From a virus (lineage: Duplodnaviria; Caudoviricetes): a stretch of DNA of 58,993 nt. Positions within the stretch are counted from its first letter, which is position 1. Every line of letters begins with the position of its first letter. The position numbers and the translations under genes are program-made. Under the pieces are notes generated by a model that saw only the letters and a program-made list of their open reading frames with translations, was not told the DNA's origin and did no database searches. Shown piece by piece: positions 5,756 to 26,318 of the stretch. The stretch is from IMG/VR virus record IMGVR_UViG_3300025276_000003, positions 1 through 58,993 of that record. One strand, given 5' to 3'.

Positions 5756-6088
5756 ATGAGAACAATCAAACTTTACCATGGCACAAATGCAAGCAACTTA
5801 CTCAGCGTTATGGACTATCCGAAGGCAAGCAAGTCAATCAATGGCTTAGGCTTTTACTTGTCAACTGAGTATGATACAGCTAAGCAATACGGCAGAGATG
5901 TCATTTGTTACGTTATCTCAGTTGTAGAGTTTGACAAGCTTAGTTCAATAGTTCGTCCAATTGATCAAAGTTACATTGAGGGGATTAGGACATACGAGCA
6001 GTGCTTGGTATGTGGTGTTGAGGTAGTACTTACCCAGCACAGTGCAGACCAGCTGGCTATCAACTCAGAAGAGGTGTATGCTATATGA
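5756..6088 (+). CDS. Putative ADP-ribosyltransferase-fold protein (H-Y-E/PARP-like, DUF3990-like)
   Basis: LYHGT, GLGFYLST, AKQYG and a later E in GVEVVL; start set at ATG 5756 after GGAG. Confidence 0.6.
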   Translation: MRTIKLYHGTNASNLLSVMDYPKASKSINGLGFYLSTEYDTAKQYGRDVICYVISVVEFDKLSSIVRPIDQSYIEGIRTYEQCLVCGVEVVLTQHSADQLAINSEEVYAI

Positions 6089-8277
6089 TCAGTACTAGCT
6101 TAACTGTAGAGAGTAACACTAACTTAACTAAAGAGAGTAACACTATGAGCAACTTAACTGTAGAACAAGCACTAGTAATTGAATTCGCACGTTTGAACTT
6201 AACTAAAGAGAATACTACTATGACAATCAATGAAATCATGCAGACTATCAACTCTATCAGCTACAACGAGCAAGCAGTAGCATCACGTATTGCATCTGAC
6301 CTGTACATCAACACTGACCTAGACCTTAGTGTACAGCAGTGCTTGCTAGTAGCTACAGCATTCACCGAGAACTTGGAGAGTGTTGATGACATGGAGCACT
6401 TCATGATCCTACTCAACAGCTCATTCCAGTCACTTGACCTGACTATTATGCAGGATGGCAAGCCTGTTGCACACGCTGATGTACTTGACCGTGATGCTGA
6501 CTTCATGTCTGCACTAGTCATTGCTGACCTAGTCACTGAGGCTGGTGAGTTGGGTGACAAGCTGGGTGAGATACTGTCACTTCAGAAGACTTCATACGCT
6601 CCTGTAGCACCTGGCAGCATTGACAGACGTAAGAACTACTCACCTGTCAAGCAGAGTGCATACTTCGAGAAAGCAGTACATGTTCTTGAGTCTACTGAGT
6701 TCACAGTTGACACTATGATGATGGACATAGCTCACCAAGTAATTGGCAAGGCTAAGTACATCAACAGTGTTGAGCTTAACATGCTAGTCAATGATGACTC
6801 ATACGTGCTAGATGGCTGTGCTAAGTTAGGTGATCGTGTGTCAGTTAGTGAGTTCCATGGTGATCGTCGTGGTCGTTTGTACCAAGCTGCATGTCATGGG
6901 CCAAATGGTCAGTCATCTGATCGTTCACGCGCACTCATGAACTTAGCTGGTGTACATTACACTGAAGCTCAGATCCCTGAGATCAAAGAAGCTATCAAGG
7001 CTGAGATGCTTGACATGATATCAATCTCTGACACAGCTGACAACAACAAGCAGATAGTTGGCTTGATCAAAGCAGCAGCAGCTAACCCTGTTGACTTCAT
7101 CATAGCTGTTATGCAGTCTGACTTAGCTGGTGAGAAATCAGAGGTTAAGAAGCCTTGGTCATTCGTTAAGGCAGCCATGATCTGGGTTGACTTGGCTCGT
7201 GGTAACATGCCTTACATTGGCATGGCTGTTGGACTTGATGCTAAGTGTTCAGGACCACAGCTAGCTGCACTTATGGTTGGTGATACTAACATGGCTGTAG
7301 CAACTGGGTTCAACTTGACAGGTGAGGACAACAACAAGGATGCATACGAGCTAGCTATCGTTGAGCTTGACAAGCATCGTGAGTTCTCAGGTCTTACCAG
7401 AGCTGACATCAAGACAGCATTCATGGCTATCTTCTATGGTCAAGGTTGGGGAGCATTCACTCAGTACAATGCTGACATGAATAAGAACTTGGCCTCAATG
7501 CTTAACTTGTCTAATCCTGGAGATGCTATTGAGGATGATGTAGCTAAGAAGTTCCACAAGGTAGTATGCTCTAGCTTTGGCAAGAAGATGAATACTCTGC
7601 GTGATAACATGAAGGGATACATGGGTAAAGTATCTGGCAAGGTCAAGCACTTCATGCCTGATGGCTTCGAGGTTGCTATGAACTACAAAGTCAAGTTCAA
7701 TGCTCTTGATCAAGCTATGGAGTATGGTGTAGAAGAGACTGATGCACAAGTTGGTCACCTCAAGTTCATCAACGTCAAGCTTAACTCACACGTTGTTGAC
7801 AGTGATACATTCGCTCGCAATGGCTTCGTTAACATGATTCAAGCAACTGATGCACAGCTGGCTAGACTGATCATAGTCAACTTAAATGAGTTAGGTGCTC
7901 AGCATGTCATAGCTGTACATGACTGTTTCCGAGTCAATGTTACTGAGATGCCATTGCTTAAAGAAGCTATCAAGCTTGCATACACTCAGCTGTTCGGTGC
8001 ATCACGTAATAAGATCACCCCCGATCTTGTTAAAGGCACTGACATCTTAGGTATGTACTTCGATGGCATCAATAAGAATGTTGATCAGATGATCATCAAG
8101 CAGCAGGATGTAGACTTCAGCCAGACTGAGGAAGTGCCAGTAGCTGAGTCTAACAAGCGTACAGTATCACAGTTCACAGTTGGTGACGTGCAAGTACGTA
8201 AGCTGTCTAAGATCAAGGGTGTTAAGTTCACTGACATCGTAGACCAGCTTGGTGTTAGCTACTACTTCGCTAAGTAG
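6085..8277 (+). CDS. Single-subunit T7-type RNA polymerase 1 (early); true start may be 6145 or 6220
   Basis: DRRGRLY, motif A GLDAKCSGPQ, motif B RADIKTAFMAIFYG, FMPDGF, NMIQATDA, motif C VHDCF, C-terminus YYFAK. Confidence 0.9.
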   Translation: MISTSLTVESNTNLTKESNTMSNLTVEQALVIEFARLNLTKENTTMTINEIMQTINSISYNEQAVASRIASDLYINTDLDLSVQQCLLVATAFTENLESVDDMEHFMILLNSSFQSLDLTIMQDGKPVAHADVLDRDADFMSALVIADLVTEAGELGDKLGEILSLQKTSYAPVAPGSIDRRKNYSPVKQSAYFEKAVHVLESTEFTVDTMMMDIAHQVIGKAKYINSVELNMLVNDDSYVLDGCAKLGDRVSVSEFHGDRRGRLYQAACHGPNGQSSDRSRALMNLAGVHYTEAQIPEIKEAIKAEMLDMISISDTADNNKQIVGLIKAAAANPVDFIIAVMQSDLAGEKSEVKKPWSFVKAAMIWVDLARGNMPYIGMAVGLDAKCSGPQLAALMVGDTNMAVATGFNLTGEDNNKDAYELAIVELDKHREFSGLTRADIKTAFMAIFYGQGWGAFTQYNADMNKNLASMLNLSNPGDAIEDDVAKKFHKVVCSSFGKKMNTLRDNMKGYMGKVSGKVKHFMPDGFEVAMNYKVKFNALDQAMEYGVEETDAQVGHLKFINVKLNSHVVDSDTFARNGFVNMIQATDAQLARLIIVNLNELGAQHVIAVHDCFRVNVTEMPLLKEAIKLAYTQLFGASRNKITPDLVKGTDILGMYFDGINKNVDQMIIKQQDVDFSQTEEVPVAESNKRTVSQFTVGDVQVRKLSKIKGVKFTDIVDQLGVSYYFAK
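6099..6220 (+). repeat. Four imperfect ~23-bp repeats CTTAACT(GT/AA)AGA...ACTA at the RNAP1 5' end
   Basis: Copies at 6099, 6123, 6153 and 6198; two end in in-frame ATGs (6145, 6220) preceded by AGAG. Confidence 0.8.
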
Positions 8278-8431: not shown

Positions 8432-8581
8432 AACCTTAATAGCTTTCATCTAGGATAGGTATGTTAGTGATGTGATGACGAGATACAACCTTAATGACTT
8501 TCATCTAGGATAGATATGAGAGTACAAAACAACGTGCTGATATGGTGGCATGAACAACCTTAATAGCTTTCATCTAGGTAG
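8432..8581 (+). promoter_or_regulatory. Three 26-27-bp direct repeats AACCTTAAT(AG/GA)CTTTCATCTAGG(A)TAG; candidate phage-RNAP promoters/origin
   Basis: Copies at 8432..8458, 8487..8513 and 8556..8581 with 28- and 42-nt gaps. TAAT...TCA..TAGG layout resembles T7-type promoters; located directly after RNAP1. The repeats are certain, the function is inferred. Confidence 0.6.
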
Positions 8582-8814
8582 ACTAGTAGGTCTAGCATGA
8601 TGGGGCAAGATATGACCTAGCTTGTTAGTAGTGAGTACAAGCTACAGCTCTGTCAAGGTAGTTAGCAAGGTTCAGCGCTGGCAAGGTGTGTAGAGCATTG
8701 CACGTTTGTGTGAGTCAGTGGTAAGTTAGTGTCAATGGCATGTCATGTTAGGCTTAGGTCTGGCATGTTATGGTAAGATGTGTGAGGTAATGGGGATGAT
8801 CTGGGGTTGTCAGG

Positions 8815-8901
8815 CGTCAAAGCTCTGGCATGTACTGTCAAGGTTCTGGCATGTACTGCTAAAGTTCTGGCACTTACTGGCAATATTGCTATATACTGCT
8901 A
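8815..8901 (+). repeat. Iteron-like tandem repeats: 3 x 21 bp plus ~10.5-bp phased TGGCA/TGTCA/TGCTA boxes
   Basis: TCAAAGCTCTGGCATGTACTG (8817), TCAAGGTTCTGGCATGTACTG (8838), CTAAAGTTCTGGCACTTACTG (8859); boxes at 8826, 8836, 8847, 8857, 8868, 8878, 8887 and 8897. Confidence 0.8.
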
Positions 8902-9179: not shown

Positions 9180-9635
9180 ATGTCCTTATTAAACAAAATG
9201 TCTAACCTTCGTTCAATCGCTTCTGCTACTCCTGCTGTTACTCGTACTGAGATGACTCCTGTCCAAGTAGAGCAGTGTCGTGAAGCTATCAAGCGTGACA
9301 ACCGTGGTTACAATGTTCAGCCTAACCGCTTTGATGTTGCAGTGCCTTACCGTGTTGCTATCAACTTCAACAAGCCTGCACTGGGTAAAGAAGCTGGCTG
9401 GCATAACTTTGGTAACTTCAAGTCTGTTGACGTTGCTGCTGCTATTGGCTCTATTGTCAGTGCTGCATTCTTTGGTGAGAAAGCTATTGGTGGTGAGTAT
9501 GATGCTACTGTAGTTGAGACTCACCCTGAATACACTGCATGGTTGGCTGATATCCGCAATGTTGATATTATTGCCTGTGCTATGGGTGAGTCAGTTGTAG
9601 ACTCTATGCGCGGTACTGACCAAGTACCATTCTAG
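9180..9635 (+). CDS. Stand-alone AP2-like DNA-binding protein
   Basis: YRVAI...GK...NFGNFKSVDVAAAI...SAAFFGEKA fits the phage AP2 pattern; strong GCT/CGT codon bias; own terminator. Confidence 0.55.
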   Translation: MSLLNKMSNLRSIASATPAVTRTEMTPVQVEQCREAIKRDNRGYNVQPNRFDVAVPYRVAINFNKPALGKEAGWHNFGNFKSVDVAAAIGSIVSAAFFGEKAIGGEYDATVVETHPEYTAWLADIRNVDIIACAMGESVVDSMRGTDQVPF

Positions 9636-9640
9636 TGAAC

Positions 9641-9671
9641 AGCCCTGTCCTTAATTGGATAGGGCTTTTTT
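9641..9671 (+). terminator. Rho-independent terminator
   Basis: AGCCCTGTCC-TTAATT-GGATAGGGCT followed by a T run. Confidence 0.85.
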
Positions 9672-11192: not shown

Positions 11193-12578
11193 ATGGGTAC
11201 AACAAACGCACAAGGCTTGTACCCTGATCAGGTACTCGTAGCTGAACAATTTGAGGCTTGGCTCAACGGTAAGCCAGAACTTTCAGCAGGTCTGTGGGCT
11301 AGTGCAGGGTTTGGCAAGTCTTACTCTGCCAAGTTTCTAATAGATGAGGTAATAATCAGGCAATCTAACTACAACCCAATCATAACTTCCATGACTCACT
11401 CAGCAGTTGAAGTTCTCGAAGGCTTCATTGGCAGACCTGTCACTACCTTACACGCTCTGATGGGCTGGGTTCCACAGATTAATAAGGAAACTGGAGAAGA
11501 GTACGTAAGTACACCAAAGATGCGAGACAAGTCTGCTAAGCCTAAGCTAAACAATGGCATGGTTGTGATAGTAGACGAAGCAGGATTAATGGGTCACGAA
11601 GAGTGCAGGTTACTTGAGCAAGAAGCTAGTGAAGCTAATGCAAGAATCCTGTACATAGGTGATAACAAGCAATGCTTCCCTGTAATTAAAGAAGGTGAGG
11701 AGATGTGCATACCAGCTTACAGATCTACTGGTACGTACCTAGAACTCACAATTCCTAAGCGTGTAAACACTGGCGATGCCATCTACGCACTGTCCATGGC
11801 TTACCGCAAGACTGTTGATGGTTTCAGGCAGCCTAAGCTACGCACAGTACTCAGTCCGGGATCAAGAAAAGGGGTAATAGTGTCAGATGATATCGAAGAG
11901 AATGCAATCAAAGCGTTTAAATCAGCGATCAAGGATGGCACAAGCAAGCAGGTCAAAGTGCTGGCATTCACAAACAAAAGATGCCTCAACCTCAACAGAA
12001 AAATCAGAAAGAAAGTGCTCGGACTATCCACCTCAACCCCGTTAGTAGGCGAGGAGATGGTAGCCAATGCAGGTGTGTCTAACATGCTGGGGGACAATGT
12101 ACTACTCAAGAACAACCAGAAGGTTACTGTAAAAGAGGTCGAACCTACAGAGACTCACGGCCTAAAGGGAGCTTACGTGCTGTTCATAGATGAGCTAGGT
12201 AAGACACTGCCAGAACGTGTCTTTGTTCCTGAAAGCCCTCAAAAGCTAACTGACCGACTAAAGATGATAGCCAACATTGCCAAAGAGTATGCCCAAACTG
12301 CCACAGCCACCAAAGATCAGGGTGAGGCCGAGCAGTTTAGGTTAGCAGCTAAGCAAGAATGGAGATCCTTCTTCGCACTAAAAGAAGCCTGTGCAGATAT
12401 CAGGTTTACCTACGCAATGACAGTTAACAAGTCACAGGGAACTACACTCAAACATGTGTTAGTAGATTTGTATGACATTAACAGCTGCCGTGACAAGGAA
12501 CAAGCTGCTAGGTTAGCTTACACTGCAATTACCAGAGCAACTGACAATGTAACCATTGAAGGTGAGCTGGATGGGTAA
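11193..12578 (+). CDS. dda: Dda/RecD-like SF1B DNA helicase
   Basis: Walker A SAGFGKS, VDEAG, GDNKQ, YAMTVNKSQG, YTAITRA. Confidence 0.85.
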   Translation: MGTTNAQGLYPDQVLVAEQFEAWLNGKPELSAGLWASAGFGKSYSAKFLIDEVIIRQSNYNPIITSMTHSAVEVLEGFIGRPVTTLHALMGWVPQINKETGEEYVSTPKMRDKSAKPKLNNGMVVIVDEAGLMGHEECRLLEQEASEANARILYIGDNKQCFPVIKEGEEMCIPAYRSTGTYLELTIPKRVNTGDAIYALSMAYRKTVDGFRQPKLRTVLSPGSRKGVIVSDDIEENAIKAFKSAIKDGTSKQVKVLAFTNKRCLNLNRKIRKKVLGLSTSTPLVGEEMVANAGVSNMLGDNVLLKNNQKVTVKEVEPTETHGLKGAYVLFIDELGKTLPERVFVPESPQKLTDRLKMIANIAKEYAQTATATKDQGEAEQFRLAAKQEWRSFFALKEACADIRFTYAMTVNKSQGTTLKHVLVDLYDINSCRDKEQAARLAYTAITRATDNVTIEGELDG

Positions 12579-12622
12579 TAACAACATTTGAAAAACCCCT
12601 TTGGGATTAATCTAGGTGACTT

Positions 12623-12751
12623 ATGGATGAATTTATAGTAAAAGTGTTGCAAAAGGTTGTGTGGTCCTCAATTACAGTAATAGTAGTGTTGACTTTAATA
12701 GGGTATTTACTAGTAAGATTTGTTCAAGAAAGCATTCCCCGACAAGGATAG
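12623..12751 (+). CDS. Small single-TM peptide (42 aa)
   Basis: AGGTG RBS; VVWSSITVIVVLTLIGYLLV hydrophobic stretch. Confidence 0.5.
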   Translation: MDEFIVKVLQKVVWSSITVIVVLTLIGYLLVRFVQESIPRQG

Positions 12752-12862
12752 CTGAAGAGCTGTAACCTAGTCCTGCATGCCCTGTTGGGAGTGTAGGCAC
12801 TAACACTGTTGACAAACAAGTAAGTAATGTAAACATAAATGTAAACAAATAGAGAAACTATT

Positions 12863-13174
12863 ATGACAAATGAAGTAATTGAAGTATTCGGACAGTACGC
12901 AGTTCAAATCAACGGTGAGCCAGCACTTTTCCCTACACAAGCAGATGCTCAAGTTGCACTAGCTGTACACAATAACGGCGCTGAGAACCTAAAGTTAGCC
13001 AAGCAGTACTGTGAGTATTTGGGATTAGATGCTTATAGCAAGAACGCTGTAGGCAAGATCAATGTAATCACAGCCTTCCTAAGCTACTGTGATGCGGGCA
13101 GTCCTAAAGCTGAGCCTGTTGCTGAATTAGAACCAATTGAGTATACATCACCAGAAGAAGAGATTGTGTTTTAG
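12863..13174 (+). CDS. Hypothetical protein with acidic tail
   Basis: ORF with AGAG RBS; ends EEEIVF. Confidence 0.7.
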   Translation: MTNEVIEVFGQYAVQINGEPALFPTQADAQVALAVHNNGAENLKLAKQYCEYLGLDAYSKNAVGKINVITAFLSYCDAGSPKAEPVAELEPIEYTSPEEEIVF

Positions 13175-13197
13175 TAATTTGAGAGGAGTGTATTGTA

Positions 13198-13377
13198 ATG
13201 GACCGAGATAGTATAAAAGTACTTACATCACTGCTGGAAGAGAGCTATGCCTACGAAGATTATATAGTAGGCAAGCTTGAAGAAGCACTGATCTATATAG
13301 ACAACATCGAGTCTGAACTAAGACGAGCGCAAGAGACATGCATGCCATTAAATCTTAGGGAGGACTACAACCCATAA
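13198..13377 (+). CDS. Hypothetical protein (59 aa)
   Basis: GAGGAG RBS; MDRDSIKVLTSLLEE...; fills the gap. Confidence 0.55.
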   Translation: MDRDSIKVLTSLLEESYAYEDYIVGKLEEALIYIDNIESELRRAQETCMPLNLREDYNP

Positions 13378-13386
13378 GGAATTAAC

Positions 13387-13779
13387 ATGTTATCACTAGT
13401 ATTACCATTTCTATCATCATTGGTTAGTCCTATCACTACTGTGATAAAAGGCAAGCAAGCTGTAAGAGCTGCTGTGACAAAGGCAAAGATAGATTCAATT
13501 GAGCGAGGTGAGCTATCAGAGATTCAAGCAGATACAGAAGCACGAGCAAATGCTGGTCTAATGGACGATATATCATTCTATGTATTCTTATCACCAGCAA
13601 TATTTGCATTCTGGCCACCGGCATTGCCACATATCAAGGCTGGTTTTCAAGCATTGGAAGGGATGCCACAGTGGTATCAAGCAGCCCTCGGCCTGATGCT
13701 GGCGTCAGTGTGGGGTTACCGCAAGCTTCTTTCACCTATTATACAAATGTTAGCAAAAGCCTACCTTGGAAAGAAATAA
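13387..13779 (+). CDS. Putative holin (3TM-holin-like)
   Basis: Hydrophobic segments with GFQALEGMPQWYQAALGLMLASVWGYR; basic C-terminus; directly upstream of the lysozyme. Confidence 0.65.
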   Translation: MLSLVLPFLSSLVSPITTVIKGKQAVRAAVTKAKIDSIERGELSEIQADTEARANAGLMDDISFYVFLSPAIFAFWPPALPHIKAGFQALEGMPQWYQAALGLMLASVWGYRKLLSPIIQMLAKAYLGKK

Positions 13780-18472: not shown

Positions 18473-18477
18473 AGAAA

Positions 18478-18651: not shown

Positions 18652-18967
18652 CGTACCTAAAACTGGAAAAGATATGAGGACAACTGAGGCAGGTACTCGC
18701 CACAATAGTGGCAAAACCCAGCTTAGCTACATACTAGATGCTGACATAGCTATGAAAGGCATGTGCGATGTATTCGAGTTTGGCGCAAAGAAGTATGAAC
18801 GTAACAACTGGAAGAAAGGTTTAAACACTAAAGAGGTTATGGATAGCCTGCTACGTCACCTTACTTCCTATGCTAGTGGAGAAGTGCTAGATCCAGAATC
18901 AGGGCTGCCGCACATTGACCATATCACCTGTAATGCAGTGTTTCTGGCAACATTTGGAGAAAGATAG
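18620..18967 (+). CDS. DUF5664 (dATP/dGTP diphosphohydrolase-like) protein; start uncertain
   Basis: FGAKKYERNNWKKG, SLLRHL, DPESGLPHIDH..CNA.FL. Confidence 0.8.
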   Translation: MLRMKEMITCSVPKTGKDMRTTEAGTRHNSGKTQLSYILDADIAMKGMCDVFEFGAKKYERNNWKKGLNTKEVMDSLLRHLTSYASGEVLDPESGLPHIDHITCNAVFLATFGER

Positions 18968-19206
18968 TGATCAAGCACTTAGTTGGAAAGATGCTTGAAC
19001 ACAAGGAGTGGTCAAGGACTAAGGGATTAGTTACCTTGACAATAGATACCTACGGTGACGTTGAGATGGAGAACTCTACTGGCAAGTGGTTATGTATATC
19101 ACTTTCCACCGAGGAATTGATAGGACTGAACGCAACACTTTCAGAGTTTATAGAGATGCGTAAAGAGGTAAAAGAACACGACATAAGAATTGGTATTCCA
19201 CAATAG
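18967..19206 (+). CDS. Hypothetical protein
   Basis: GTG start overlapping the upstream stop. Confidence 0.6.
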   Translation: MIKHLVGKMLEHKEWSRTKGLVTLTIDTYGDVEMENSTGKWLCISLSTEELIGLNATLSEFIEMRKEVKEHDIRIGIPQ

Positions 19207-19214
19207 GATTAAAC

Positions 19215-21230
19215 ATGACACAAAGTTTTAGAAGTAAAGTAATAACAAGACGGACATATAACCGTCCTTTGAACGATGAAGGTACTGTGTTTGAGACATG
19301 GCCACAAACTGTTGACCGTGTTATTGGTCACCAGAAGTGGTTGTGGGAGAGAGCACTAGGTCAATCCCTAAGCTTTGGGCAACTAGAGGAACTAGAAGAA
19401 CTGCGAGATTTGATGCTGGCTAGGAAGACTTCAGTCTCTGGCCGAACTTTGTGGCTTGGCGGAACAGAAGTGTCCAAGACCTGTGAAGCATCTCAGTTCA
19501 ACTGTTCAGGTACTCGCGTAGAAGTTGTTTATGATGTAGTCGATACTATCTGGCTACTTATGCAAGGTTGTGGGGTTGGCCTAGAAGCGGTGACAGGTAA
19601 CTTAACTGGGTTCCGTAAGAAGCACAAAGTATCAGTTGTTAGGTCTACTCGTGAGTCTAAGGGCAATCCAGACAATGCTGAATATATTAATGATGGTGTA
19701 TGGACTATTAAAGTGGGTGACTCTGCTCAAGCATGGGCCAAAGCTGTTGGTAAGATTATAGTAGGCAAGAACAACGTCAGTGAGATTGTGTTGGACTTTA
19801 CTGAAATTAGACCTGCTGGATCAAGGCTGAAAGGTTATGGCTGGATATGCTCTGGTGATGAACAAGTTAGCAAAGCATTTGTAGCCATTTGTGAGTTACT
19901 GAACAACAGAGCTGACCAACTACTCAGTGATATGGACATACATGACATAGAAAATTGGCTGGGTACAATACTTTCATCACGTAGAAGTGCTGAGATCATC
20001 ACTAAGAAGTATGGTAGTGAGGATTGGGAGGGATTTGTAGCTCGTAAAACTAACTATTGGTCTTGTAACTCTTGCGGATCACACAACACTACATTAGGAG
20101 TATGTAATGATTGTGGAGCAAAAGATACCAACGATTTTAGAACCCAATCAAATAACAGCTTACTGTTTGAGTCCAAACCTAGCTACCCAGAGCTTAGAGA
20201 CATCTTTAACAGGATGGAGAGTGCTGGCGGGTCTGAACCGGGCTTTATTAATGTTGCTGCTGCAAGACTACGTGCGCCTTGGTTCGCTACACTAAACCCC
20301 TGTGCTGAGATACTGTTGCCCAACAAAGGTTTCTGTAATTTAGTAGAAATTAACTTGGCTGCATTTAGTGACAAGGAACACGGTGAGTTAGACCGCGCTA
20401 TAGAAGTTATGGCTCGTGCTAACTACAGACAAACTTGTGTGAACTTACGTGACGGAATCTTGCAAGAAGCTTGGCATACTAACAATGAGTTTCTACGCTT
20501 GTGCGGTGTTGGACTTACTGGTGTAGCTCAGCGTCCTGACATCAAAAGTCAAGAACTTGGCTCTATGAGGCAGATAGCACACAACTCTGCTAACTCTATG
20601 GCAGACGAGCTTGGGACACCTAGACCTAAGAATGTCACAACCATTAAACCCTCTGGAACTCTCAGCAAGATTATGGACTGTACTGAGGGGTTACATATAC
20701 CTTTAGGCAAGTACATCTTCAACTGGGTTGGGTTCTCATCCCACGATCCTATCGTACTAAAGCTTGTAGAAGCTGGTTACGAGTGGATGCAAAAGCCGGG
20801 TGATTCATCGACATACTTGATAAAGCTACCAGCAAGTTATGAAGGATGTAACTTTACAGATGTCAATGGCACAGAGGTAAACCTAGAATCAGCAATAGAT
20901 CAACTAGAGCGTTACAAGATGTATCAGATCAATTGGACTGATCAAAACACTTCTGTAACCATCTCCTATGACTTAACAGAAGTAGAAGATATTATTGCTT
21001 GGCTTCTAGAAAACTGGGATCACTACGTAGGCGTATCATTTATCTACAGAAATGACCCAACTAAGACAGCAAAAGACCTTGGTTACGAGTACCTTCCACA
21101 AGAAGTTACCACCAAGGAAGAGTTTGAAGCATATGTAGCAATACTAAAAGATGTAGACCTCGATGCTGTAAACTCTCACGACCAAATTGAAGGGGATGAG
21201 TGCGCCACTGGCGTCTGTCCAACTCGATAA
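19215..21230 (+). CDS. nrdJ: Class II (adenosylcobalamin-dependent, monomeric RTPR-like) ribonucleotide reductase
   Basis: RTYNR, SQFNC, LNPCAEI, FCNLVE, TTIKPSGT, C-terminal CATGVCP; no R2 (NrdB) gene seen. Confidence 0.9.
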   Translation: MTQSFRSKVITRRTYNRPLNDEGTVFETWPQTVDRVIGHQKWLWERALGQSLSFGQLEELEELRDLMLARKTSVSGRTLWLGGTEVSKTCEASQFNCSGTRVEVVYDVVDTIWLLMQGCGVGLEAVTGNLTGFRKKHKVSVVRSTRESKGNPDNAEYINDGVWTIKVGDSAQAWAKAVGKIIVGKNNVSEIVLDFTEIRPAGSRLKGYGWICSGDEQVSKAFVAICELLNNRADQLLSDMDIHDIENWLGTILSSRRSAEIITKKYGSEDWEGFVARKTNYWSCNSCGSHNTTLGVCNDCGAKDTNDFRTQSNNSLLFESKPSYPELRDIFNRMESAGGSEPGFINVAAARLRAPWFATLNPCAEILLPNKGFCNLVEINLAAFSDKEHGELDRAIEVMARANYRQTCVNLRDGILQEAWHTNNEFLRLCGVGLTGVAQRPDIKSQELGSMRQIAHNSANSMADELGTPRPKNVTTIKPSGTLSKIMDCTEGLHIPLGKYIFNWVGFSSHDPIVLKLVEAGYEWMQKPGDSSTYLIKLPASYEGCNFTDVNGTEVNLESAIDQLERYKMYQINWTDQNTSVTISYDLTEVEDIIAWLLENWDHYVGVSFIYRNDPTKTAKDLGYEYLPQEVTTKEEFEAYVAILKDVDLDAVNSHDQIEGDECATGVCPTR

Positions 21231-21256
21231 TTAAATTAACCTTACGGAGAATCAAA

Positions 21257-21904
21257 ATGGCTAATGCCCAAAAGAAAGAAACCTCAATTGTAACAGTAAA
21301 AGACGTTTACTTTGTATACAGTTCAGTGAGTGAGCCTCGTTCACAACTAAACCCTGATAACAAGGCTATGATGTCGGATCACGAATTGGAGGGTCATTCC
21401 TACCAAATCAGCATCCTCATGCCTGAAGATCGTTTCAAGTCTGAGCTAAAGCGCGAGTTCAAGGGCGCTAAGAACTTTCCTAACGCTAAGGAATATAGTC
21501 CTGAAGAGTGTGAAGAGTTGTTTGGAGTCTTTGTTGAAGATGACATGGTTTCAATCAAATTCTCTCAGACCTGTCTTACTGGCAAGGCAAGCAATCGTGT
21601 ACCTACTCGTCCTATCACACAGATCGGTATTAAGGGTAAAGTACAGGACATTAACGGTGTTACTATTAGCCAAGATACTAACCTGGGCTATGGCACTAAG
21701 GGTCACTTCCAATTCAATCCTTATCACAACGAGAAGAATGGATTGTACCTGTACCCACACCTAGTTTGTGTTACTGAACTAGTTGAGTACGCTGGTGGTG
21801 GTAGTGCTGAAGACTTAGATTCACTAGGTTTGGAGGAGCTTGACACTGTAGACGTAACTGAAGCTGTGGTCACTAAAGAAGAATTTGAAGATCCCAACTT
21901 TTAA
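21257..21904 (+). CDS. Single-stranded DNA-binding protein (T7 gp2.5-like)
   Basis: Position in the replication module; LVEYAGG followed by a long acidic tail ending in Phe; followed by a terminator. Confidence 0.7.
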   Translation: MANAQKKETSIVTVKDVYFVYSSVSEPRSQLNPDNKAMMSDHELEGHSYQISILMPEDRFKSELKREFKGAKNFPNAKEYSPEECEELFGVFVEDDMVSIKFSQTCLTGKASNRVPTRPITQIGIKGKVQDINGVTISQDTNLGYGTKGHFQFNPYHNEKNGLYLYPHLVCVTELVEYAGGGSAEDLDSLGLEELDTVDVTEAVVTKEEFEDPNF

Positions 21905-21911
21905 CATGAGT

Positions 21912-21944
21912 AGCCCACCTTAAATAACTAGGGTGGGCTTTTTT
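21912..21944 (+). terminator. Rho-independent terminator
   Basis: AGCCCACCTTA-AATAAC-TAGGGTGGGCT plus T run. Confidence 0.85.
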
Positions 21945-21960
21945 GTTTTTGGAGAAACAT

Positions 21961-22092
21961 ATGACAACATACATGGCAGTAACAAAATCCGGGCAGACTA
22001 GCTACTTTTCTGCACGAACAGAATCAGACGCATTTCAGCAAGCAACCAGCTGGGCAGGAGATGACTTATTGGAGAGTTTCAATGTCGCTTGA
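21961..22092 (+). CDS. Hypothetical protein (43 aa)
   Basis: GGAG RBS; MTTYMAVTKSGQTSYF... Confidence 0.5.
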   Translation: MTTYMAVTKSGQTSYFSARTESDAFQQATSWAGDDLLESFNVA

Positions 22093-23017
22093 TGACTTAG
22101 GTTTGACAGACTACGAAGCAGAAGAAGAGAAAACCCTACTAATTGACGGAGATATACTAATATACAAGCCTTGTTGCATTTATAACGAGGACGATGACTA
22201 TGATCGTAAACAGATTGAGAAGAACATCAATCACAAAATAGATCAGCTAATGGAGTTATCAGGTTGTGGCAGTTACATCATGTTTGTCACTACTAAGACA
22301 AACTTCAGAGACTTCTTAGTTGACGACTACAAAGCTAACAGAATTGACACAGTACGACCAGTCAACTTGGCGTGGGCTAAGCGGTGGGCTGTAGATACTT
22401 TCAACACACATTACCGATCAGGACTTGAAGCAGATGACCTGTTAGGCATTCACCAGACTAAAGACACAGTTATCTGGAGCTTGGACAAGGACTTGCGACA
22501 GATCTCTGGACTTCACTTGGACGATGCAACAAGCAAGGTCATTACTGTCACCGAAAATGGTGTACTGAGGAAAAAGTTAGGAGCACTAAAGAATCCTGAC
22601 ACTAATAGTAAGGCGCGCAAGGCAACCAAATATTACTTCGACGGTCTGGTAGGGCTCTACTTCCAGATGCTGACAGGTGATGATACGGATTGGATTGTTG
22701 GCTGTGGAGAACGTAAAGAGTACACTGTTAAGTCAGGTGCCAGTGCTGGACAAGTTAGATTAAAACGCTTTGGAATAGGGCCGGGTAAAGCATACGAAAT
22801 GCTTTCAGAAGCTAGAACTATTGAAGATGCGTTTGATGTAGTTTGTGAAGAGTACCGTAAGCAATACGGTGATAACTGGATAAAACACCTTGAAATACAG
22901 TCTAACTTATTGTTCATGGTGCGAGAACACAATGAAAATCTCGTGAGGCAGTGGACTTATGATGACAGAGAGCAGTGGCTTGACATAGATACTGGAGAGA
23001 CTCATGAGGTTACTTAA
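22082..23017 (+). CDS. 5'-3' exonuclease (T7 gp6/FEN-like)
   Basis: LLIDGDIL, YKANR, LEADDLLGI, SLDKDLRQI, LTGDDTD, GIGPGKA. Confidence 0.9.
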   Translation: MSLDDLGLTDYEAEEEKTLLIDGDILIYKPCCIYNEDDDYDRKQIEKNINHKIDQLMELSGCGSYIMFVTTKTNFRDFLVDDYKANRIDTVRPVNLAWAKRWAVDTFNTHYRSGLEADDLLGIHQTKDTVIWSLDKDLRQISGLHLDDATSKVITVTENGVLRKKLGALKNPDTNSKARKATKYYFDGLVGLYFQMLTGDDTDWIVGCGERKEYTVKSGASAGQVRLKRFGIGPGKAYEMLSEARTIEDAFDVVCEEYRKQYGDNWIKHLEIQSNLLFMVREHNENLVRQWTYDDREQWLDIDTGETHEVT

Positions 23018-23369
23018 ATCATCTGACTTAGCCAACATACGAAAGAAGTACACTGCTAAGCAGCGTTACTTGTGTGCTCTGTGTGATGGTACATTGGCCG
23101 GTGGTGTTCCTATGTTGGACCACTGCCACAAGACTGGACATGTAAGGTCAACCTTATGTCGTTCATGTAACGAAGGAGAGGGTAGAGTGTTGTCAGGAAT
23201 GATGATACGCACACCCGTAACTAATTTAGCTAAGAAAGATCCTGTCAAGTGGCTGCGAAGACTCGCAGACTACTGGGAGTATCATGCTGAAAACCCGTCA
23301 GGCTTCATTCATCCAACATTTGATGTAAAGACTGGCAAACAAAAACCTGTAAAGCGGAGAAAGAAATGA
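23004..23369 (+). CDS. Recombination endonuclease VII (Holliday junction resolvase)
   Basis: CALC...LDHCHKTGHVRSTLCRSCN. Confidence 0.85.
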   Translation: MRLLKSSDLANIRKKYTAKQRYLCALCDGTLAGGVPMLDHCHKTGHVRSTLCRSCNEGEGRVLSGMMIRTPVTNLAKKDPVKWLRRLADYWEYHAENPSGFIHPTFDVKTGKQKPVKRRKK

Positions 23370-24253
23370 CATTATCAATAGATATGCCCAATTTCGAACC
23401 TAACGTAGACCGTCCTCATGTACAAGAAGTCATGAAGAAGACAGTCTTCCTAGATATAGAGACATCACTGTTAGAAATCTATTCATTTCGTCTAGGTATG
23501 CAGCGTCCAAACATTGACTCGTTGAAAGAAGGTTCACAGACTAAGCTACTTACAGCTGCTTGGGGTACATGGTACGACCTGTACAACAAGGGAGAGGCTG
23601 GAGTCAAGTCTGTTGGCAACCACCACCGTAAGGGTGCATTTAAGAAAGATCCCTTAGACGACACTTACGTGCTCCGTAAGATGTGGGATGTACTTGACGG
23701 TGCTGACATTATTGTAGCACACAACGCTGCATTTGACCGTGGCTGGATCGAAGGTCGGTTCATGGACTTAGGATGGAAACAACCTTCCAAGTACTACGTC
23801 TACTGTACTTACCAAACTCTTCACGGACTTAACGGTGTTAGCAAGAAGCTAGACTACTTGTCACAGAAGCTGATTGGTACTGAGAAAGTCAAGCACGAGG
23901 GTCTACCACTGTGGATAGGTTGCCAGAACGGTGACGTTGAAAGCTTTGAAAAGATGGAAGACTATAACATAGGTGACATCTATGACACTTTGTACAAGGT
24001 GTTCATGCGTACTGCACTGTATGTTAATCGAAATAAGTGTATTGACTTGGCTGGCGAAGGTATCTACTGTAACGTAACTGGTGATAGACTGGTTAAACAG
24101 GATGAAGTGTACCGTAATCGTACTACTGGCCTTAAGTACTACACCTACATCAATGAGAAGTATAACTTAGAGTACAGAGATCGTTACAACATACGCTCTA
24201 AGAAAGCCGGGGCTGGGTTTATTACTCCACTAATCGCAAATGGGTTGAAATAG
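23366..24253 (+). CDS. DEDD/RNase H-like 3'-5' exonuclease
   Basis: FLDIET, VAHNAAFD, KLDYL, YNIGDI. Confidence 0.8.
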   Translation: MTLSIDMPNFEPNVDRPHVQEVMKKTVFLDIETSLLEIYSFRLGMQRPNIDSLKEGSQTKLLTAAWGTWYDLYNKGEAGVKSVGNHHRKGAFKKDPLDDTYVLRKMWDVLDGADIIVAHNAAFDRGWIEGRFMDLGWKQPSKYYVYCTYQTLHGLNGVSKKLDYLSQKLIGTEKVKHEGLPLWIGCQNGDVESFEKMEDYNIGDIYDTLYKVFMRTALYVNRNKCIDLAGEGIYCNVTGDRLVKQDEVYRNRTTGLKYYTYINEKYNLEYRDRYNIRSKKAGAGFITPLIANGLK

Positions 24254-24254
24254 T

Positions 24255-24443: not shown

Positions 24444-24455
24444 TAGGGAGGCAGT

Positions 24456-26318
24456 ATGATTGAGTTAGATGGTGGCGTTGTGCTGCCAGTTCCAAAGAGA
24501 AGCAAGGGATTTACACAGCCTGATACAATCAAGAGGTTTAGGTGGGATAGTGACAAGGAGGGTAGGTGGTACAGGGCTTACATGCACTGCTTATACTCCT
24601 TAACTATACACTTGGGGCTGCCGCTACACTCAGTAGTTCCAAGACTTGCAAAAAAGATGAAGGAGGCAGACGATCCCTTTAACGTAGCTCTTAGATTTAT
24701 GGGTGAGATGGAGTTGCAAGGGTATGTTAGGTTTGATGTTAGAAGAAAGACTAACAGTGACCAAGAAGAGAGGCTGGTAATAGCAACTAAGAAGCTGCTA
24801 GCACTAGACTTAAACTTCGAGGAAGCACCATCGTCTGCTATTAAGTATCCTATACTTCCCGGATCTAGGATACCTGTATCACCCATAAGGAATGGTGTTG
24901 CATCAAATAAAAATAAACAGGTTTCTTCTATAGCTTATGAGATGGCTATGGAGAAATTCAAAATTAATAGGTATGTACTTCGTTTGCTAGAGGATTTTCC
25001 ACCAGAGTTTACAGAAGCTGGTTCGGATTACATGTATAAAAGAACTATGCACTGTGCAAACGAGATGGTTGAGGACAACTTTAGGTTTCCCTACTTCTTG
25101 GATAGTAGATCAAGAATGTATGAGGACACGACCTGCGGATTTAGCCCACAAGGTGCTGATCACGAGAAGGCGCTATGCCAACCAACTTACAAGGAAATAC
25201 TTAATGAAAGTGGATACAAAGCCCTGCTTGAAACAGCGTATGGATACTCTGAGATCAAGTGGACAGAAGATACTATTATTGACATGGCGAAGAACCCTAG
25301 GAGAACGGAGAAGGAGTGGAAGAAGGCTGACAAACCCTACTGCTTTATGGCTTGTGCTGATCTTATCCGTCAATATAGCGATAGTCCCCTATCACCTCTG
25401 TCTGGATTCATCCCACTGGACGGTAGATGTAGCGGCCTACAACACTGGTCTGCTCTTACTAAATCTCCTGCTATCACTGCTCACTTGGGCATGGAGGTAC
25501 AGGAAGCAGATTTGGATATCTATGAGAAAGTAGCAGAGGACTGGAAAGAAACACTTGAACCTGAGTGGCAGTTCATGGCTACTAGAAAGGCAGCTAAGAT
25601 CCCTGTCATGACTTGGGGTTATAATGCTACAGTAACTACATCAATGGAGTGGATGGAGAAACTGTTCGGCTCCAAGAAGAAGTGGAGTCCAGAATTAAAC
25701 GAGTACGTAATGGCTGAGGGAGGACTAGAAAAGATAGCTGCAAGGCGCAAGGGTGCTGACCTGTACAAGAACCTAAATGCTACGCTAGGCCCACTAAGGG
25801 CAGCAGTAGACTGGGTTAGTGGCTGTGCTACAAAGATTGCCACCGCTGGTAATGTCGAGATACATTGGATAACACCTGATGGGTTCGAGGCAATGCAGCG
25901 CAAGGTAAAGGGAAAGCAAAGGGACATAACTTGCACACTGAGCAACAATTCTAGAATTGACTTGGAGATACAGGACTTCTCTGTTGAGACTCCACACACA
26001 GCTAAGCACAGATCTGCTATTGCACCTAACATAATACATAGTCTTGATGCTACACATCTTAGGATGGTGGCAAGAAGACTAAATGAGTTAGGCTTGCCAA
26101 TGATATTCATTCACGACTCGTTTGCTACTCACTGCAATCATCGTGACACTTTGTACGAGATAATTGTAGACACTTTTATCGAGCTATACAGTGGTGACTA
26201 CATGAAAGAACTGTATAATTATTGGAAAGAAATGTACAACGTAGACATACCAGAACCACCTAAAGCGGGTATTTGGGAGGCCACGTCCTTAAAGGGCTGT
26301 AGCAGGTTTTTCCTCTAA
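24456..26318 (+). CDS. Single-subunit T7-type RNA polymerase 2 (probably late)
   Basis: LDSRSRMY, motif A LDGRCSGLQH, motif B RKAAKIPVMTWGY, WITPDGF, APNIIHSLDATH, motif C IHDSF, ends RFFL. Confidence 0.92.
   Translation: MIELDGGVVLPVPKRSKGFTQPDTIKRFRWDSDKEGRWYRAYMHCLYSLTIHLGLPLHSVVPRLAKKMKEADDPFNVALRFMGEMELQGYVRFDVRRKTNSDQEERLVIATKKLLALDLNFEEAPSSAIKYPILPGSRIPVSPIRNGVASNKNKQVSSIAYEMAMEKFKINRYVLRLLEDFPPEFTEAGSDYMYKRTMHCANEMVEDNFRFPYFLDSRSRMYEDTTCGFSPQGADHEKALCQPTYKEILNESGYKALLETAYGYSEIKWTEDTIIDMAKNPRRTEKEWKKADKPYCFMACADLIRQYSDSPLSPLSGFIPLDGRCSGLQHWSALTKSPAITAHLGMEVQEADLDIYEKVAEDWKETLEPEWQFMATRKAAKIPVMTWGYNATVTTSMEWMEKLFGSKKKWSPELNEYVMAEGGLEKIAARRKGADLYKNLNATLGPLRAAVDWVSGCATKIATAGNVEIHWITPDGFEAMQRKVKGKQRDITCTLSNNSRIDLEIQDFSVETPHTAKHRSAIAPNIIHSLDATHLRMVARRLNELGLPMIFIHDSFATHCNHRDTLYEIIVDTFIELYSGDYMKELYNYWKEMYNVDIPEPPKAGIWEATSLKGCSRFFL

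What the first reader, a model, noticed from the sequence alone, without database searches (positions are those of the whole stretch)
6085..26318. Two separate, short T7-type RNA polymerases in one myovirus genome: a candidate two-polymerase transcription cascade
Seen: RNAP1 (6085..8277) and RNAP2 (24456..26318) each carry a complete set of catalytic motifs (DxRxRxY, A, B, C), so they are not split halves like N4 RNAPII. They are highly divergent from each other and both are much shorter than T7 RNAP (883 aa). Known: T7 places its RNAP early, phiKMV-like phages place it after the replication genes, and Chaseviridae myoviruses carry one. Inference: this genome uses both placements, host RNAP then RNAP1 (middle genes, origin priming, possibly DNA entry) then RNAP2 (virion genes), with two orthogonal promoter specificities. 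The enzymes may also be useful as compact in vitro transcription tools.
Basis: partly seen in the sequence, partly recalled or inferred. Interest (0 to 1): 0.85.

Follow-up and report, generated by a model that had tools for sequence, protein, structure and literature searches.

The report
Marine myovirus with two RNA polymerases
An uncultured marine phage related to the Chaseviridae carries two different, apparently intact T7-type RNA polymerase genes. One heads its early genes and one sits just before its virion genes, as in all its sampled relatives, which suggests a stepwise transcription programme run by the phage itself.

Summary
ORF 6085-8277 (RNAP1) and ORF 24456-26318 (RNAP2) are both single-chain T7-type RNA polymerases. 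Their catalytic residues align with T7 D421/R423/R425/Y427, D537, R627/K631/Y639 and H811/D812. Both have confident T7-RNAP-like models. They share only 21% identity.

The window is a whole IMG/VR virus record. It has 55,425 unique bases plus a 3,568-base end duplication. It is a marine myovirus whose nearest cultured relatives are Chaseviridae.

RNAP1 is the counterpart of the single Chaseviridae polymerase. RNAP2 belongs to a separate family and sits where phiKMV and Xp10 keep their polymerase: after the exonuclease genes, before the virion genes. All 10 related records examined carry both genes in the same order. All 7 cultured Chaseviridae examined carry only the RNAP1 type.

Each polymerase gene is followed by its own conserved non-coding element. 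RNAP1 is followed by three tandem repeats. RNAP2 is followed by a single motif inside a hairpin, found in 10 of 29 related loci. These are candidate promoters of two classes.

A host-to-RNAP1-to-RNAP2 cascade is the best reading but is inferred, not shown. No RNA data exist. I found no description in print. Verdict: a new variant of a known kind, of moderate to high interest.

The parts
5435..5460 (+). Terminator-like hairpin that closes the tail-fibre (late) genes. It lies at the left edge of the 315-nt gap before the early genes.
   Evidence: 10-pair stem followed by a T-rich tail; gap shown.
5744..6088 (+). First early ORF (114 aa). Its stop overlaps the annotated RNAP1 start (ATGA). It is a possible small ADP-ribosyltransferase-fold protein; this is a lead only.
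   Evidence: Pfam ART-PolyVal 24.2 bits, below the 31.2 cut-off, E 6.2e-5. Atlas feature hits of 0.92-0.95 to RNA 2'-phosphotransferase, PARP, Arr and Tox-ART clusters. No PHROG match. A homologue lies upstream of RNAP1 only in G003 among 8 relatives.
6085..8277 (+). RNAP1: a Chaseviridae-type single-subunit RNA polymerase. The ORF is 730 aa; the likely true start is 6220 (M46), giving 685 aa.
6101..6212 (+). Three tandem copies of TAACT[AG][AT]AGAGA[GA] (6101, 6125, 6200). The last two each end in an in-frame ATG (6145, 6220). A fourth copy at 9160 precedes the ATG of ORF 9180. Read as ribosome-binding regions, not promoters.
   Evidence: The same motif precedes start codons in G001 and G002.
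8432..8592 (+). Class E element: three tandem 37-nt repeats (8432, 8487, 8556) in the 900-nt non-coding region behind RNAP1. They are a candidate early/middle phage-polymerase promoter cluster and/or replication origin.
   Evidence: family D10; 3 matches, 0 in 100 shuffles. Like elements lie behind RNAP1 in G001, G002 and G005, and behind the polymerase gene of Vibrio phage VPs20. Copy number varies between marine samples (joint 8480 to 8556).
8816..8878 (+). Second tandem repeat family (21 nt, three copies, plus looser copies at 8759 and 9052) in the same non-coding region. Its role is unknown; iterons are one guess.
   Evidence: (family D8).
9180..9666 (+). First gene after the repeats (151 aa, no family match), closed by a strong terminator at 9641-9666. 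It looks like a short, self-contained early transcription unit.
   Evidence: Homologues lie in G001-G005 at 35-53% identity.
11193..24253 (+). Replication module: Dda-like helicase, lysozyme, primase, DNA polymerase, ribonucleotide reductase, gp2.5-like SSB, a terminator at 21912-21939, exonuclease, and DNA polymerase exonuclease subunit.
24456..26318 (+). RNAP2: a 620-aa single-subunit RNA polymerase of a separate family. It is the last gene of the exonuclease operon and lies directly before the virion genes.
26343..26419 (+). Long hairpin in the 122-nt gap behind RNAP2. It encloses the class L motif (26365-26393): CGTTACCATCCCG, a 7-nt A/T-rich spacer, then AGGGTGAG. It is a candidate late promoter, possibly combined with a terminator or processing site.
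   Evidence: once per genome in G000, G001, G003, G005; z-scores -2.0, -2.4 and -3.0 in three genomes; 10 of 29 distinct related loci.
26441..38652 (+). Start of the virion genes: a 148-aa ORF (small terminase is a guess), large terminase 26897-28489, portal 31150-32463, protease 32460-33569 and tail sheath 37174-38652.

Best explanation
The window is the whole genome of an uncultured marine myovirus from a sister lineage of the Chaseviridae. It encodes two catalytically intact single-subunit RNA polymerases of different families.

Shown:
- Both genes are complete.
- Both are conserved with their active-site residues.
- They are kept together, in fixed positions, in every relative examined.

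Inferred working model:
1. The early end enters first. The ART-like ORF and RNAP1 are expressed there; the host polymerase is assumed to do this, because no virion polymerase gene is present.
2. RNAP1 is the counterpart of the single Chaseviridae enzyme. It starts at the tandem class E repeats directly behind its own gene and drives the early/middle (replication) genes. As with the tandem T7 promoters behind T7 gene 1, it may also prime replication or help pull in the DNA.
3. RNAP2 is made as the last gene of the replication block, as in phiKMV and Xp10.
4. RNAP2 starts at the single class L motif directly behind its gene and transcribes the roughly 29-kb virion gene block.

My odds: both enzymes are active polymerases, about 0.9. 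The full three-step cascade with two promoter specificities, about 0.5.
For: Identity and integrity:
- Pfam and PHROG matches.
- Active-site residues align to T7 and are conserved across 29 and 38 family members.
- AlphaFold models reach pLDDT 81.9 and 89.9.
- T7 RNAP is the top Foldseek match for both: E 3.6e-16 and 6.7e-24.
- RNAP2 keeps beta-hairpins where T7 has its intercalating hairpin and specificity loop.

The pair is conserved:
- 10 of 10 related IMG/VR records carry both genes, 8 of them at least 96% complete.
- The order RNAP1, early genes, replication genes, RNAP2, terminase holds in the 8 near-complete genomes laid out.
- The RNAP1 and RNAP2 trees show the same split between G006-G008 and the window's group.

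Placement:
- RNAP2 follows an exonuclease, a DNA-polymerase exonuclease subunit and a small ORF, then comes before the virion genes. phiKMV and Xp10 have the same layout.
- For Xp10, a paper passage says its polymerase promoters are two tandem repeats in the gap before the structural genes (PMC4331800).
- T7 carries two annotated phage promoters directly behind gene 1.

Two element classes:
- Class E: three tandem copies behind RNAP1, against 0 in 100 shuffles. Related tandem elements lie at the same place in G001, G002, G005 and VPs20.
- Class L: one copy behind RNAP2, also present in 10 of 29 distinct related loci. All 10 are among the 15 loci whose RNAP2 is at least 54% identical; none of the 14 more distant loci has it. 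The spacing is fixed at mostly 7 nt of A/T-rich spacer.

Unit boundaries: terminators at 5435, 9641 and 21912 bound the proposed units. Sigma-70-like sites are no more frequent than in shuffles: 33 against 39.0 expected, and 36 against 33.3.
Against: - No transcript data exist; no RNA run holds the stretch.
- Neither element class is spread through the genome. Class E occurs only behind RNAP1 and class L only once, so most operon heads have no recognised phage promoter.
- De novo motif searches stayed at shuffle level.
- The class E repeats could be origin iterons or terminal-repeat boundary signals. The class L hairpin could be a terminator, a processing site or a packaging signal.
- Which enzyme reads which element is only guessed from adjacency.
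- Cultured Chaseviridae manage with the RNAP1 type alone (7 of 7), so RNAP2 is not a necessity of this genome design.
- No canonical sigma-70 promoter was scored in front of RNAP1. A TTGACA box at 5646 has a 20-nt spacer by eye.
- According to the ICTV profile, promoters of the Chaseviridae enzyme are still unidentified (PMC12842549).
Confidence: 0.5

Rival explanations
1. Division of labour rather than a temporal relay. RNAP2 is the general phage transcriptase for middle and late genes, as the single enzyme is in phiKMV or Xp10. RNAP1 lies in or next to the terminal repeat. It mainly pulls the genome in and primes replication at the tandem repeats behind its gene.
For: - RNAP2 is far closer to the canonical T7, mitochondrial and phiKMV enzymes: Pfam 182.7 against 29.8 bits, and PDB sequence hits at E 1e-21 against none for T7.
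- The class E repeats occur only at one place, as an origin would, and their copy number varies between samples.
- Contig depth is about twofold over roughly 4.2/5.4 to 8.4/8.8 kb in four marine runs. This would fit a terminal repeat that carries RNAP1, as in Chaseviridae (about 3 kb; PMC12842549; Myduc annotation).
- T7 has tandem promoters directly behind gene 1. Their role as primary origin is recalled.
Against: - RNAP2 is encoded after the replication genes, so it cannot transcribe them first.
- In cultured Chaseviridae the RNAP1 type is the only phage polymerase.
- The contig depth is one figure per contig and could also come from strains that share this segment.
Confidence: 0.22
2. Overlapping or redundant specificities. 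Both enzymes read related promoters, and the second copy serves as a back-up or booster, for example against host factors that block one enzyme or in different hosts.
For: Both element classes end in a similar purine-rich TAGG-type start: class E ...TCTAGGATAG and class L ...TAGGGTGAG.
Against: - The upstream recognition parts of the two elements are unrelated.
- The two proteins share 21% identity and differ at the positions aligned with the T7 specificity loop.
- Both genes keep fixed, different positions in all 10 relatives. That argues for distinct roles.
Confidence: 0.1
3. One of the two is not an active polymerase but a regulatory or structural relic.
For: - RNAP1 scores only just above the Pfam cut-off and has Q where T7 has H784.
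- RNAP2 has no counterpart for T7 residues 2-118, 275-307, 344-387 (thumb region) and 586-619.
Against: - All catalytic positions are invariant or nearly so in both families, at 41% and 60% mean column identity.
- Both models are confident.
- The same Q is present in the cultured Chaseviridae enzymes.
Confidence: 0.05

Closest known systems
Chaseviridae (for example Erwinia phage Y2 and Vibrio phage VPs20): myoviruses of 52-56 kb with one large single-subunit RNA polymerase in a terminal repeat of about 3 kb
   Same: - They are the nearest cultured relatives: large terminase 46% and sheath 33-40% identical.
- Gene order is the same.
- RNAP1 groups with their polymerase (SH-aLRT 99).
- Tandem repeats lie behind the polymerase gene in VPs20.
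- Contig depth hints at a terminal repeat over RNAP1.
   Different: - The window has a second polymerase, RNAP2, before the terminase. It is absent from 7 of 7 cultured members examined.
- The window's group sits on a long separate branch in the terminase tree.
- It is marine, and no host is known.
phiKMV-like Autographiviridae and Xanthomonas phage Xp10: polymerase gene placed after the replication genes, before the virion genes
   Same: RNAP2 has the same neighbours (exonuclease, DNA polymerase exonuclease subunit, a small ORF, RNAP, virion genes). Its best cultured matches are such phages (Prado, Xanthomonas, Rhizobium and Alteromonas phages, 28-30% identity). Xp10 uses few, tandem promoters in one gap (PMC4331800 passage).
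   Different: RNAP2 is 620 aa against 746-834 aa. It forms its own clade outside them (SH-aLRT 100). The virion is contractile-tailed. A second polymerase is present.
Coliphage N4 (Schitoviridae): three polymerases acting in turn (virion RNAP, split RNAPII, host RNAP)
   Same: It gives a precedent for more than one T7-type polymerase in one phage acting in sequence (start of the abstract of PMC4496689, in the listing). N4 gp16 is the only PDB sequence match of RNAP1 (E 5e-4) and its nearest outgroup in the tree, on a long branch.
   Different: The window has no giant virion polymerase; a PF00940 search of the genome finds only the two genes. Neither enzyme is split. The phage is a myovirus of 55 kb.
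T7: tandem phage promoters directly behind the polymerase gene
   Same: Two annotated T7 promoters lie within 101 nt after gene 1. The window has three tandem repeats 155-315 nt after RNAP1.
   Different: There is no sequence likeness beyond a purine-rich start. The function of the window's repeats is untested.

Membership tests
Single-subunit (T7-type) DNA-dependent RNA polymerase, Pfam PF00940 | Profile match above the curated cut-off | tested here: met
   RNAP1 29.8 bits and RNAP2 182.7 bits, cut-off 22.
Single-subunit (T7-type) DNA-dependent RNA polymerase, Pfam PF00940 | DxRxRxY motif, motif A Asp, motif B R/K/Y and motif C His-Asp on one chain (the roles of these residues are recalled knowledge) | tested here: met
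   The residues align to T7 D421/R423/R425/Y427, D537, R627/K631/Y639 and H811/D812 in both proteins. They are conserved across both families.
Single-subunit (T7-type) DNA-dependent RNA polymerase, Pfam PF00940 | T7-RNAP-like fold | tested here: met
   Foldseek top matches are T7 RNAP. RNAP2: E 6.7e-24, TMq 0.70-0.73. RNAP1: E 3.6e-16, TMq about 0.5.
Single-subunit (T7-type) DNA-dependent RNA polymerase, Pfam PF00940 | Promoter-recognition elements of T7 RNAP: AT-rich recognition loop, intercalating hairpin and specificity loop (their positions in T7 are recalled) | tested here: inconclusive
   RNAP2 has hairpins at the aligned hairpin and loop positions. It has no counterpart of T7 residues 2-118. 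The N-terminal parts align poorly.
Single-subunit (T7-type) DNA-dependent RNA polymerase, Pfam PF00940 | Template-dependent, promoter-specific RNA synthesis | not testable with these tools
   Needs purified protein.
Chaseviridae | Myovirus with a dsDNA genome of 52-56 kb (PMC12842549) | tested here: met
   Sheath gene; 55,425 unique bases.
Chaseviridae | One large single-subunit RNA polymerase | tested here: not met
   Two polymerase genes. RNAP1 is the counterpart of the family's enzyme.
Chaseviridae | Long terminal repeats of about 3 kb | tested here: inconclusive
   Contig depth is about twofold over roughly 4.2/5.4 to 8.4/8.8 kb in 4 runs. These are contigs only. The record's own 3,568-base end duplication lies in tail-fibre genes and looks like an assembly wrap-around.
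Chaseviridae | Monophyly with the family in core-gene trees | tested here: inconclusive
   In a terminase tree of 11 rows, the window's group is a separate long branch beside Y2, VPs20 and G006-G008. There was no outgroup and the ICTV marker set was not used.
N4-like three-polymerase scheme | Giant virion-packaged polymerase and a split RNAPII | tested here: not met
   Only two PF00940 loci in the genome, both single ORFs of 620-730 aa.
Autographiviridae (phiKMV-like) | Podovirus with its own polymerase gene after the replication genes | tested here: not met
   The placement is met for RNAP2. But the virion module has a sheath and is Chaseviridae-like. RNAP2 lies outside the clade of the eight reference T7-type polymerases, which include Autographiviridae and Xp10.

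The most novel reading that the evidence does not exclude
A widespread marine phage lineage runs a three-tier transcription relay with two orthogonal, unusually small single-chain polymerases. The relay is host (or a host altered by the ART-like early protein), then RNAP1, then RNAP2. Each polymerase uses a few promoters placed directly behind its own gene. RNAP2 family members are 594-622 aa and lack most of the T7 N-terminal region and thumb. RNAP2 was already present in the common ancestor with the Chaseviridae and was later lost in the cultured, enterobacterial branch.
Probability: 0.4. Interest if true: 0.75.

Novelty: new variant of a known kind. Interest (0 to 1): 0.62.

Why it matters
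Phage-encoded single-subunit polymerases are the textbook case of a virus taking over transcription, and they are workhorses of biotechnology. Phages known to use more than one are rare; N4 is the model.

Here two full, unrelated-looking enzymes coexist in a compact 55-kb myovirus and in all its sampled marine relatives. That gives:
- a natural test bed for how two orthogonal polymerase-promoter pairs divide a small genome;
- a handle on the still unknown promoters of the Chaseviridae enzyme, through the conserved tandem element behind the gene;
- a family of very short polymerases (about 600-620 aa) whose minimal architecture could be informative;
- an evolutionary case of loss of a polymerase in the cultured branch.

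Tried and rejected
- Nucleotide searches of the phage collection with either gene found no match.
- The search for related loci with the single proteins found no relative. Alignments were needed.
- Cellular genomes hold no relative of RNAP2, so there is no host lead.
- Genome-wide promoter discovery failed twice. All-against-all 18-mers gave only coding-bias families and the local repeats. A 12-mer search of intergenic regions in four genomes stayed at or near shuffle level.
- A weight matrix of class E found high scores only at the sites it was built from, which is circular. The next best scores were G006 minus strand 21.2, G005 16.9, and the window at 12613 with 14.0.
- I first read the motif TAACTA[AT]AGAGAG as a T7-like promoter. 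I rejected that. In G001 and G002 it sits 6-10 nt before start codons of unrelated genes. The pattern search with 2 mismatches was at chance: 6 found, 4.9 expected.
- Sigma-70 scans were at chance.
- A hairpin fold of a fourth locus (L034) was not better than shuffles, z -0.04. The 3-sequence MAFFT alignment of the class L region was too poor for a covariation count, so none was made.
- Rfam and tRNA scans were empty.
- An AU test did not reject a tree in which RNAP1, the Chaseviridae enzymes and RNAP2 form one clade (p 0.126, lnL difference 15.7). Separate acquisition against ancient duplication therefore stays open. The group was named after the tree was seen.
- In the terminase tree the G002 row was a faulty ORF extraction (309 aa, branch length 10) and must be ignored.
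- No RNA holder was listed among the sequencing runs.
- ORF 9180 has no family or Atlas lead.
- Cluster look-up gave no names.
- The Endozoicomonas phage preprint (passages) concerns unrelated phages.
- Supplementary files were not consulted.

Full report
WHAT THE WINDOW IS

The 58,993-base window is a complete IMG/VR virus record, classed as having direct terminal repeats, with a CheckV completeness of 100%. Its first 3,568 bases are identical to its last 3,568, so the unique genome is 55,425 bases. That duplication lies inside tail-fibre genes and looks like an assembly wrap-around, not the physical ends. All long ORFs are on the + strand.

PHROG scans and tblastn give this order:
- tail spikes and fibres (wrapping over the ends to 5428);
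- a 315-nt gap;
- a 114-aa ORF, then RNAP1 (6085-8277);
- a 900-nt non-coding region;
- small early ORFs;
- a replication block (11193-24253);
- RNAP2 (24456-26318);
- a 122-nt gap;
- a 148-aa ORF, then large terminase, portal, protease, sheath and the remaining virion genes.

Near-identical sequence occurs in marine metagenome runs. None is an RNA run.

THE OBSERVATION

Both ORFs are T7-type single-subunit polymerases. Pfam RNA_pol scores them 29.8 and 182.7 bits against a cut-off of 22. PHROG 414 gives E 7.9e-33 and 1e-83.

I aligned both with T7 gene 1 taken from NC_001604. Both carry the residues that fall on T7 D421/R423/R425/Y427, D537, R627/K631/Y639 and H811/D812. That these are the catalytic and NTP-binding residues is recalled textbook knowledge. 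The alignment itself is computed.

The same positions are invariant in 29 RNAP1-family sequences. In 38 RNAP2-family sequences they are invariant too, except D216, which is nearly invariant. Two side differences stand out:
- RNAP1 and the Chaseviridae enzymes have Q where T7 has H784.
- RNAP2 has N where T7 has G640.

AlphaFold models built on those alignments are confident. RNAP2 reaches pLDDT 89.9 and pTM 0.85. RNAP1 reaches pLDDT 81.9 and pTM 0.80. Both find T7 RNAP first in the PDB, with E 6.7e-24 and TMq 0.70 for RNAP2, and E 3.6e-16 and TMq 0.48 for RNAP1. The two proteins are 21% identical over 406 residues.

One correction concerns the RNAP1 start. ORF codons 1-45 contain three tandem copies of a motif that also precedes the ATG of ORF 9180. 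In G001 and G002 the same motif precedes the start codons of other genes. Homologues begin near M46. Two related records have a TAA inside the matched N-terminal stretch. Residues 1-44 model at pLDDT below 50. RNAP1 most likely starts at 6220 and is 685 aa.

RELATIVES

Against 50,697 phage records, RNAP1 matches 109 records, all below 60% identity. All 40 listed rows are polymerase genes at 24.5-28% identity; the ones I looked up are Chaseviridae, and the other names are of the same kind. RNAP2 matches 2,721 records. The best are at 28-30% identity: Xylella phage Prado and Xanthomonas, Rhizobium, Alteromonas and Agrobacterium podoviruses (40 of 2,721 listed).

The window's terminase and sheath are closest to Chaseviridae, at 46% and 33-40% identity.

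In the large protein collection each polymerase has over a hundred metagenomic relatives: 233 and 157 at E up to 0.001 among the 8,000 candidates scored.

Profile-based scans of IMG/VR gave 38 RNAP2 loci and 19 RNAP1 loci. Seven contig names occur in both lists. From these I took 10 records: the eight of 52-58 kb, plus two partial ones of 36 and 31 kb. I searched each whole record with both profiles, and 10 of 10 carry both genes. In the eight near-complete genomes the order is the same as in the window: RNAP1, early genes, replication genes, RNAP2, terminase, portal.

By contrast, seven cultured Chaseviridae have a single polymerase locus of the RNAP1 type. These are Y2, VPs20, Spp001, Myduc, PVN03, SKA49 and Pel53. 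The RNAP2 profile hits that one locus only weakly, at E 1e-9 to 1e-14. The second Y2 hit is the terminal repeat.

TREES

I built a quick IQ-TREE of 33 polymerases.
- RNAP1 of the window and of G001-G005 falls in one clade with the Chaseviridae enzymes (SH-aLRT 99). N4 gp16 is next to it, on a long branch.
- RNAP2 of all nine genomes forms a clade of its own (100), beside T7, SP6, phiKMV, Prado, Xp10 and others (99).
- G006-G008 group with cultured Chaseviridae by RNAP1 (99).
- In a terminase tree, G006-G008 lie on short branches beside Y2 and VPs20 and do not form a clade of their own there; the window's group (five valid rows) is a separate long branch (the G002 row there is faulty). Yet G006-G008 carry RNAP2.
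- The RNAP2 tree shows the same split between G006-G008 and the window's group.

The simplest reading is that RNAP2 was present in the common ancestor and was lost on the way to the cultured Chaseviridae. This depends on the root lying outside.

An AU test does not reject a tree that joins RNAP1, the Chaseviridae enzymes and RNAP2 into one clade (p 0.126). Whether the two arose by a very old duplication or by separate capture is open.

PLACEMENT

RNAP2 closes an operon that begins after the terminator at 21912-21939. The operon reads: exonuclease, a 121-aa ORF, DNA-polymerase exonuclease subunit, a 62-aa ORF, RNAP2. phiKMV (ORF22 to gp26) and Xp10 (36L to 32L) have the same run of genes ending in their polymerase and followed by virion genes.

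RNAP1 sits where Chaseviridae keep their polymerase, at the head of the early genes. In Myduc and Y2 that position is inside the long terminal repeat (PMC12842549 passages).

When contigs of four marine runs are laid on 3569-23568, contig depth is about twice the rest over a segment that includes RNAP1:
- X3: 146 against 72;
- X2: 13.8 against about 7;
- X6: 32-35 against about 15;
- X1: 518-602 against 218-246.

The right edge lies between 8414 and 8955. This fits a true terminal repeat that carries RNAP1. But the depth is one figure per contig, and strains that share the segment would look the same. I count it as a hint.

NON-CODING ELEMENTS

Behind RNAP1 lie three tandem 37-nt repeats (8432, 8487, 8556). 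A 21-nt core matches three times, against none in 100 shuffles. Other samples carry a two-copy variant.

Elements with the same layout stand in two to five copies behind RNAP1 in G001, G002 and G005. The layout is an A/T-rich box, a pyrimidine-rich spacer, then TAGG plus purines. Two tandem copies ending in CTAGGTACAG stand behind the polymerase gene of Vibrio phage VPs20, which has only the RNAP1-type enzyme.

Behind RNAP2, inside a long hairpin, lies a different motif: CGTTACCATCCCG, a 7-nt A/T-rich spacer, then AGGGTGAG. The hairpin's folding z-scores are -2.0 to -3.0 in three genomes. The motif occurs once per genome, at that same place, in G000, G001, G003 and G005.

Of 36 RNAP2 loci given to the scan, 2 were too short downstream and 5 were duplicates. 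Of the 29 left, 10 have the motif within 450 nt after RNAP2. All 10 are among the 15 loci whose RNAP2 is at least 54% identical to the window's. None of the 14 more distant loci has it.

The outer stems differ in sequence between genomes but still pair. I could not make a formal covariation count.

A conserved upstream block, fixed A/T-rich spacing and a G-rich start are what a T7-type promoter looks like; this comparison is recalled, not tested. Two published or annotated cases show that few, tandem promoters in one gap can serve such enzymes:
- the Xp10 polymerase promoters are two tandem repeats in the gap before the structural genes (PMC4331800 passage);
- T7 has two annotated phage promoters right behind gene 1.

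The ICTV profile states that Chaseviridae promoters are not yet identified.

HOW IT PROBABLY WORKS

Steps 1 to 4 of the working model under Best explanation are inferred from adjacency, from conservation and from the analogies above.

I put the full relay at about 0.5, and the claim that both enzymes are active at about 0.9.

The main rival (0.22) keeps both enzymes active. It gives RNAP2 the general transcriptase role, and gives RNAP1 a role in DNA entry and origin priming at the repeats.

AGAINST THE MODEL

- There are no RNA data.
- No phage-promoter motif is spread over the genome.
- No scored sigma-70 promoter lies ahead of RNAP1.
- The elements could be origin, packaging, terminator or processing signals.
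- Cultured Chaseviridae need no RNAP2.

NOVELTY

I made six full-text searches. They used phrases for two single-subunit or T7-like polymerases in one phage, for Chaseviridae polymerase and promoters, and for surveys of single-subunit polymerases. None returned a description of a myovirus, or of any non-N4 phage, with two separate full-length T7-type polymerases. For most of those papers I saw only listings. Subscription journals are largely outside the library.

N4 is the precedent for several T7-type enzymes acting in turn (abstract start of PMC4496689). I therefore file this as a new variant of a known kind. The components and the idea of a relay are known. This pairing, its conservation across a marine clade, and the very short RNAP2 family (594-622 aa in nine genomes) are not.

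Noticed in passing
window 1-3568 and 55426-58993: There is an exact 3,568-base duplication at the two ends of the record, lying inside tail spike and fibre genes. The unique genome is 55,425 bases. The 'direct terminal repeat' label of the record is probably an assembly wrap-around, not the physical repeat.
   Followed up: partly
window about 4200-8900: Contigs of four marine runs have about twice the depth here compared with the rest of 3569-23568. This could be the true terminal repeat carrying RNAP1, as in Chaseviridae, or a segment shared by co-occurring strains.
   Followed up: partly
window 5744-6088: The first early ORF (114 aa) overlaps the annotated RNAP1 start. It gives ADP-ribosyltransferase-fold leads: Pfam ART-PolyVal below the cut-off, and Atlas scores of 0.92-0.95 to RNA 2'-phosphotransferase, PARP and Arr clusters. 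Phage ADP-ribosyltransferases that modify host RNA polymerase are known from T4 (recalled). Among 8 relatives a homologue was found only in G003.
   Followed up: partly
window 619-891, 2619-2891, 54200-54472 (and the duplicates at 56044 and 58044): Three different tail spike or fibre genes share a 273-nt N-terminal module (71-72% identity), as if interchangeable receptor-binding proteins dock on one adaptor.
   Followed up: no
window 29116-29286, inside ORF 29026-31137: A run of 9-nt (Gly-X-Asp type, collagen-like) repeats lies in a 703-aa protein encoded between the terminase and portal genes. That is an unusual place for a fibre-like protein.
   Followed up: no
window 8759-8883 and 9052-9072: A second family of 21-nt tandem repeats lies in the non-coding region behind RNAP1. 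They are distinct from the class E repeats and their role is unknown.
   Followed up: no
window 10366-10743: An early 125-aa ORF has a SprT-like metalloprotease motif match, just above the Pfam cut-off (26.8 against 25.6 bits).
   Followed up: no
G002 (loci L070-L072), terminase region about 51830-53377: The terminase frame I extracted was only 309 aa and aligned badly. The gene may be interrupted, for example by an intein or intron, or my frame choice was wrong.
   Followed up: no
G006-G008 (loci L082-L090): These uncultured records lie close to Y2 and VPs20 by terminase, which is 670 aa long like theirs, and group with cultured Chaseviridae by RNAP1. Yet they carry an RNAP2 gene. Two-polymerase phages therefore exist very near the named family.
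   Followed up: partly
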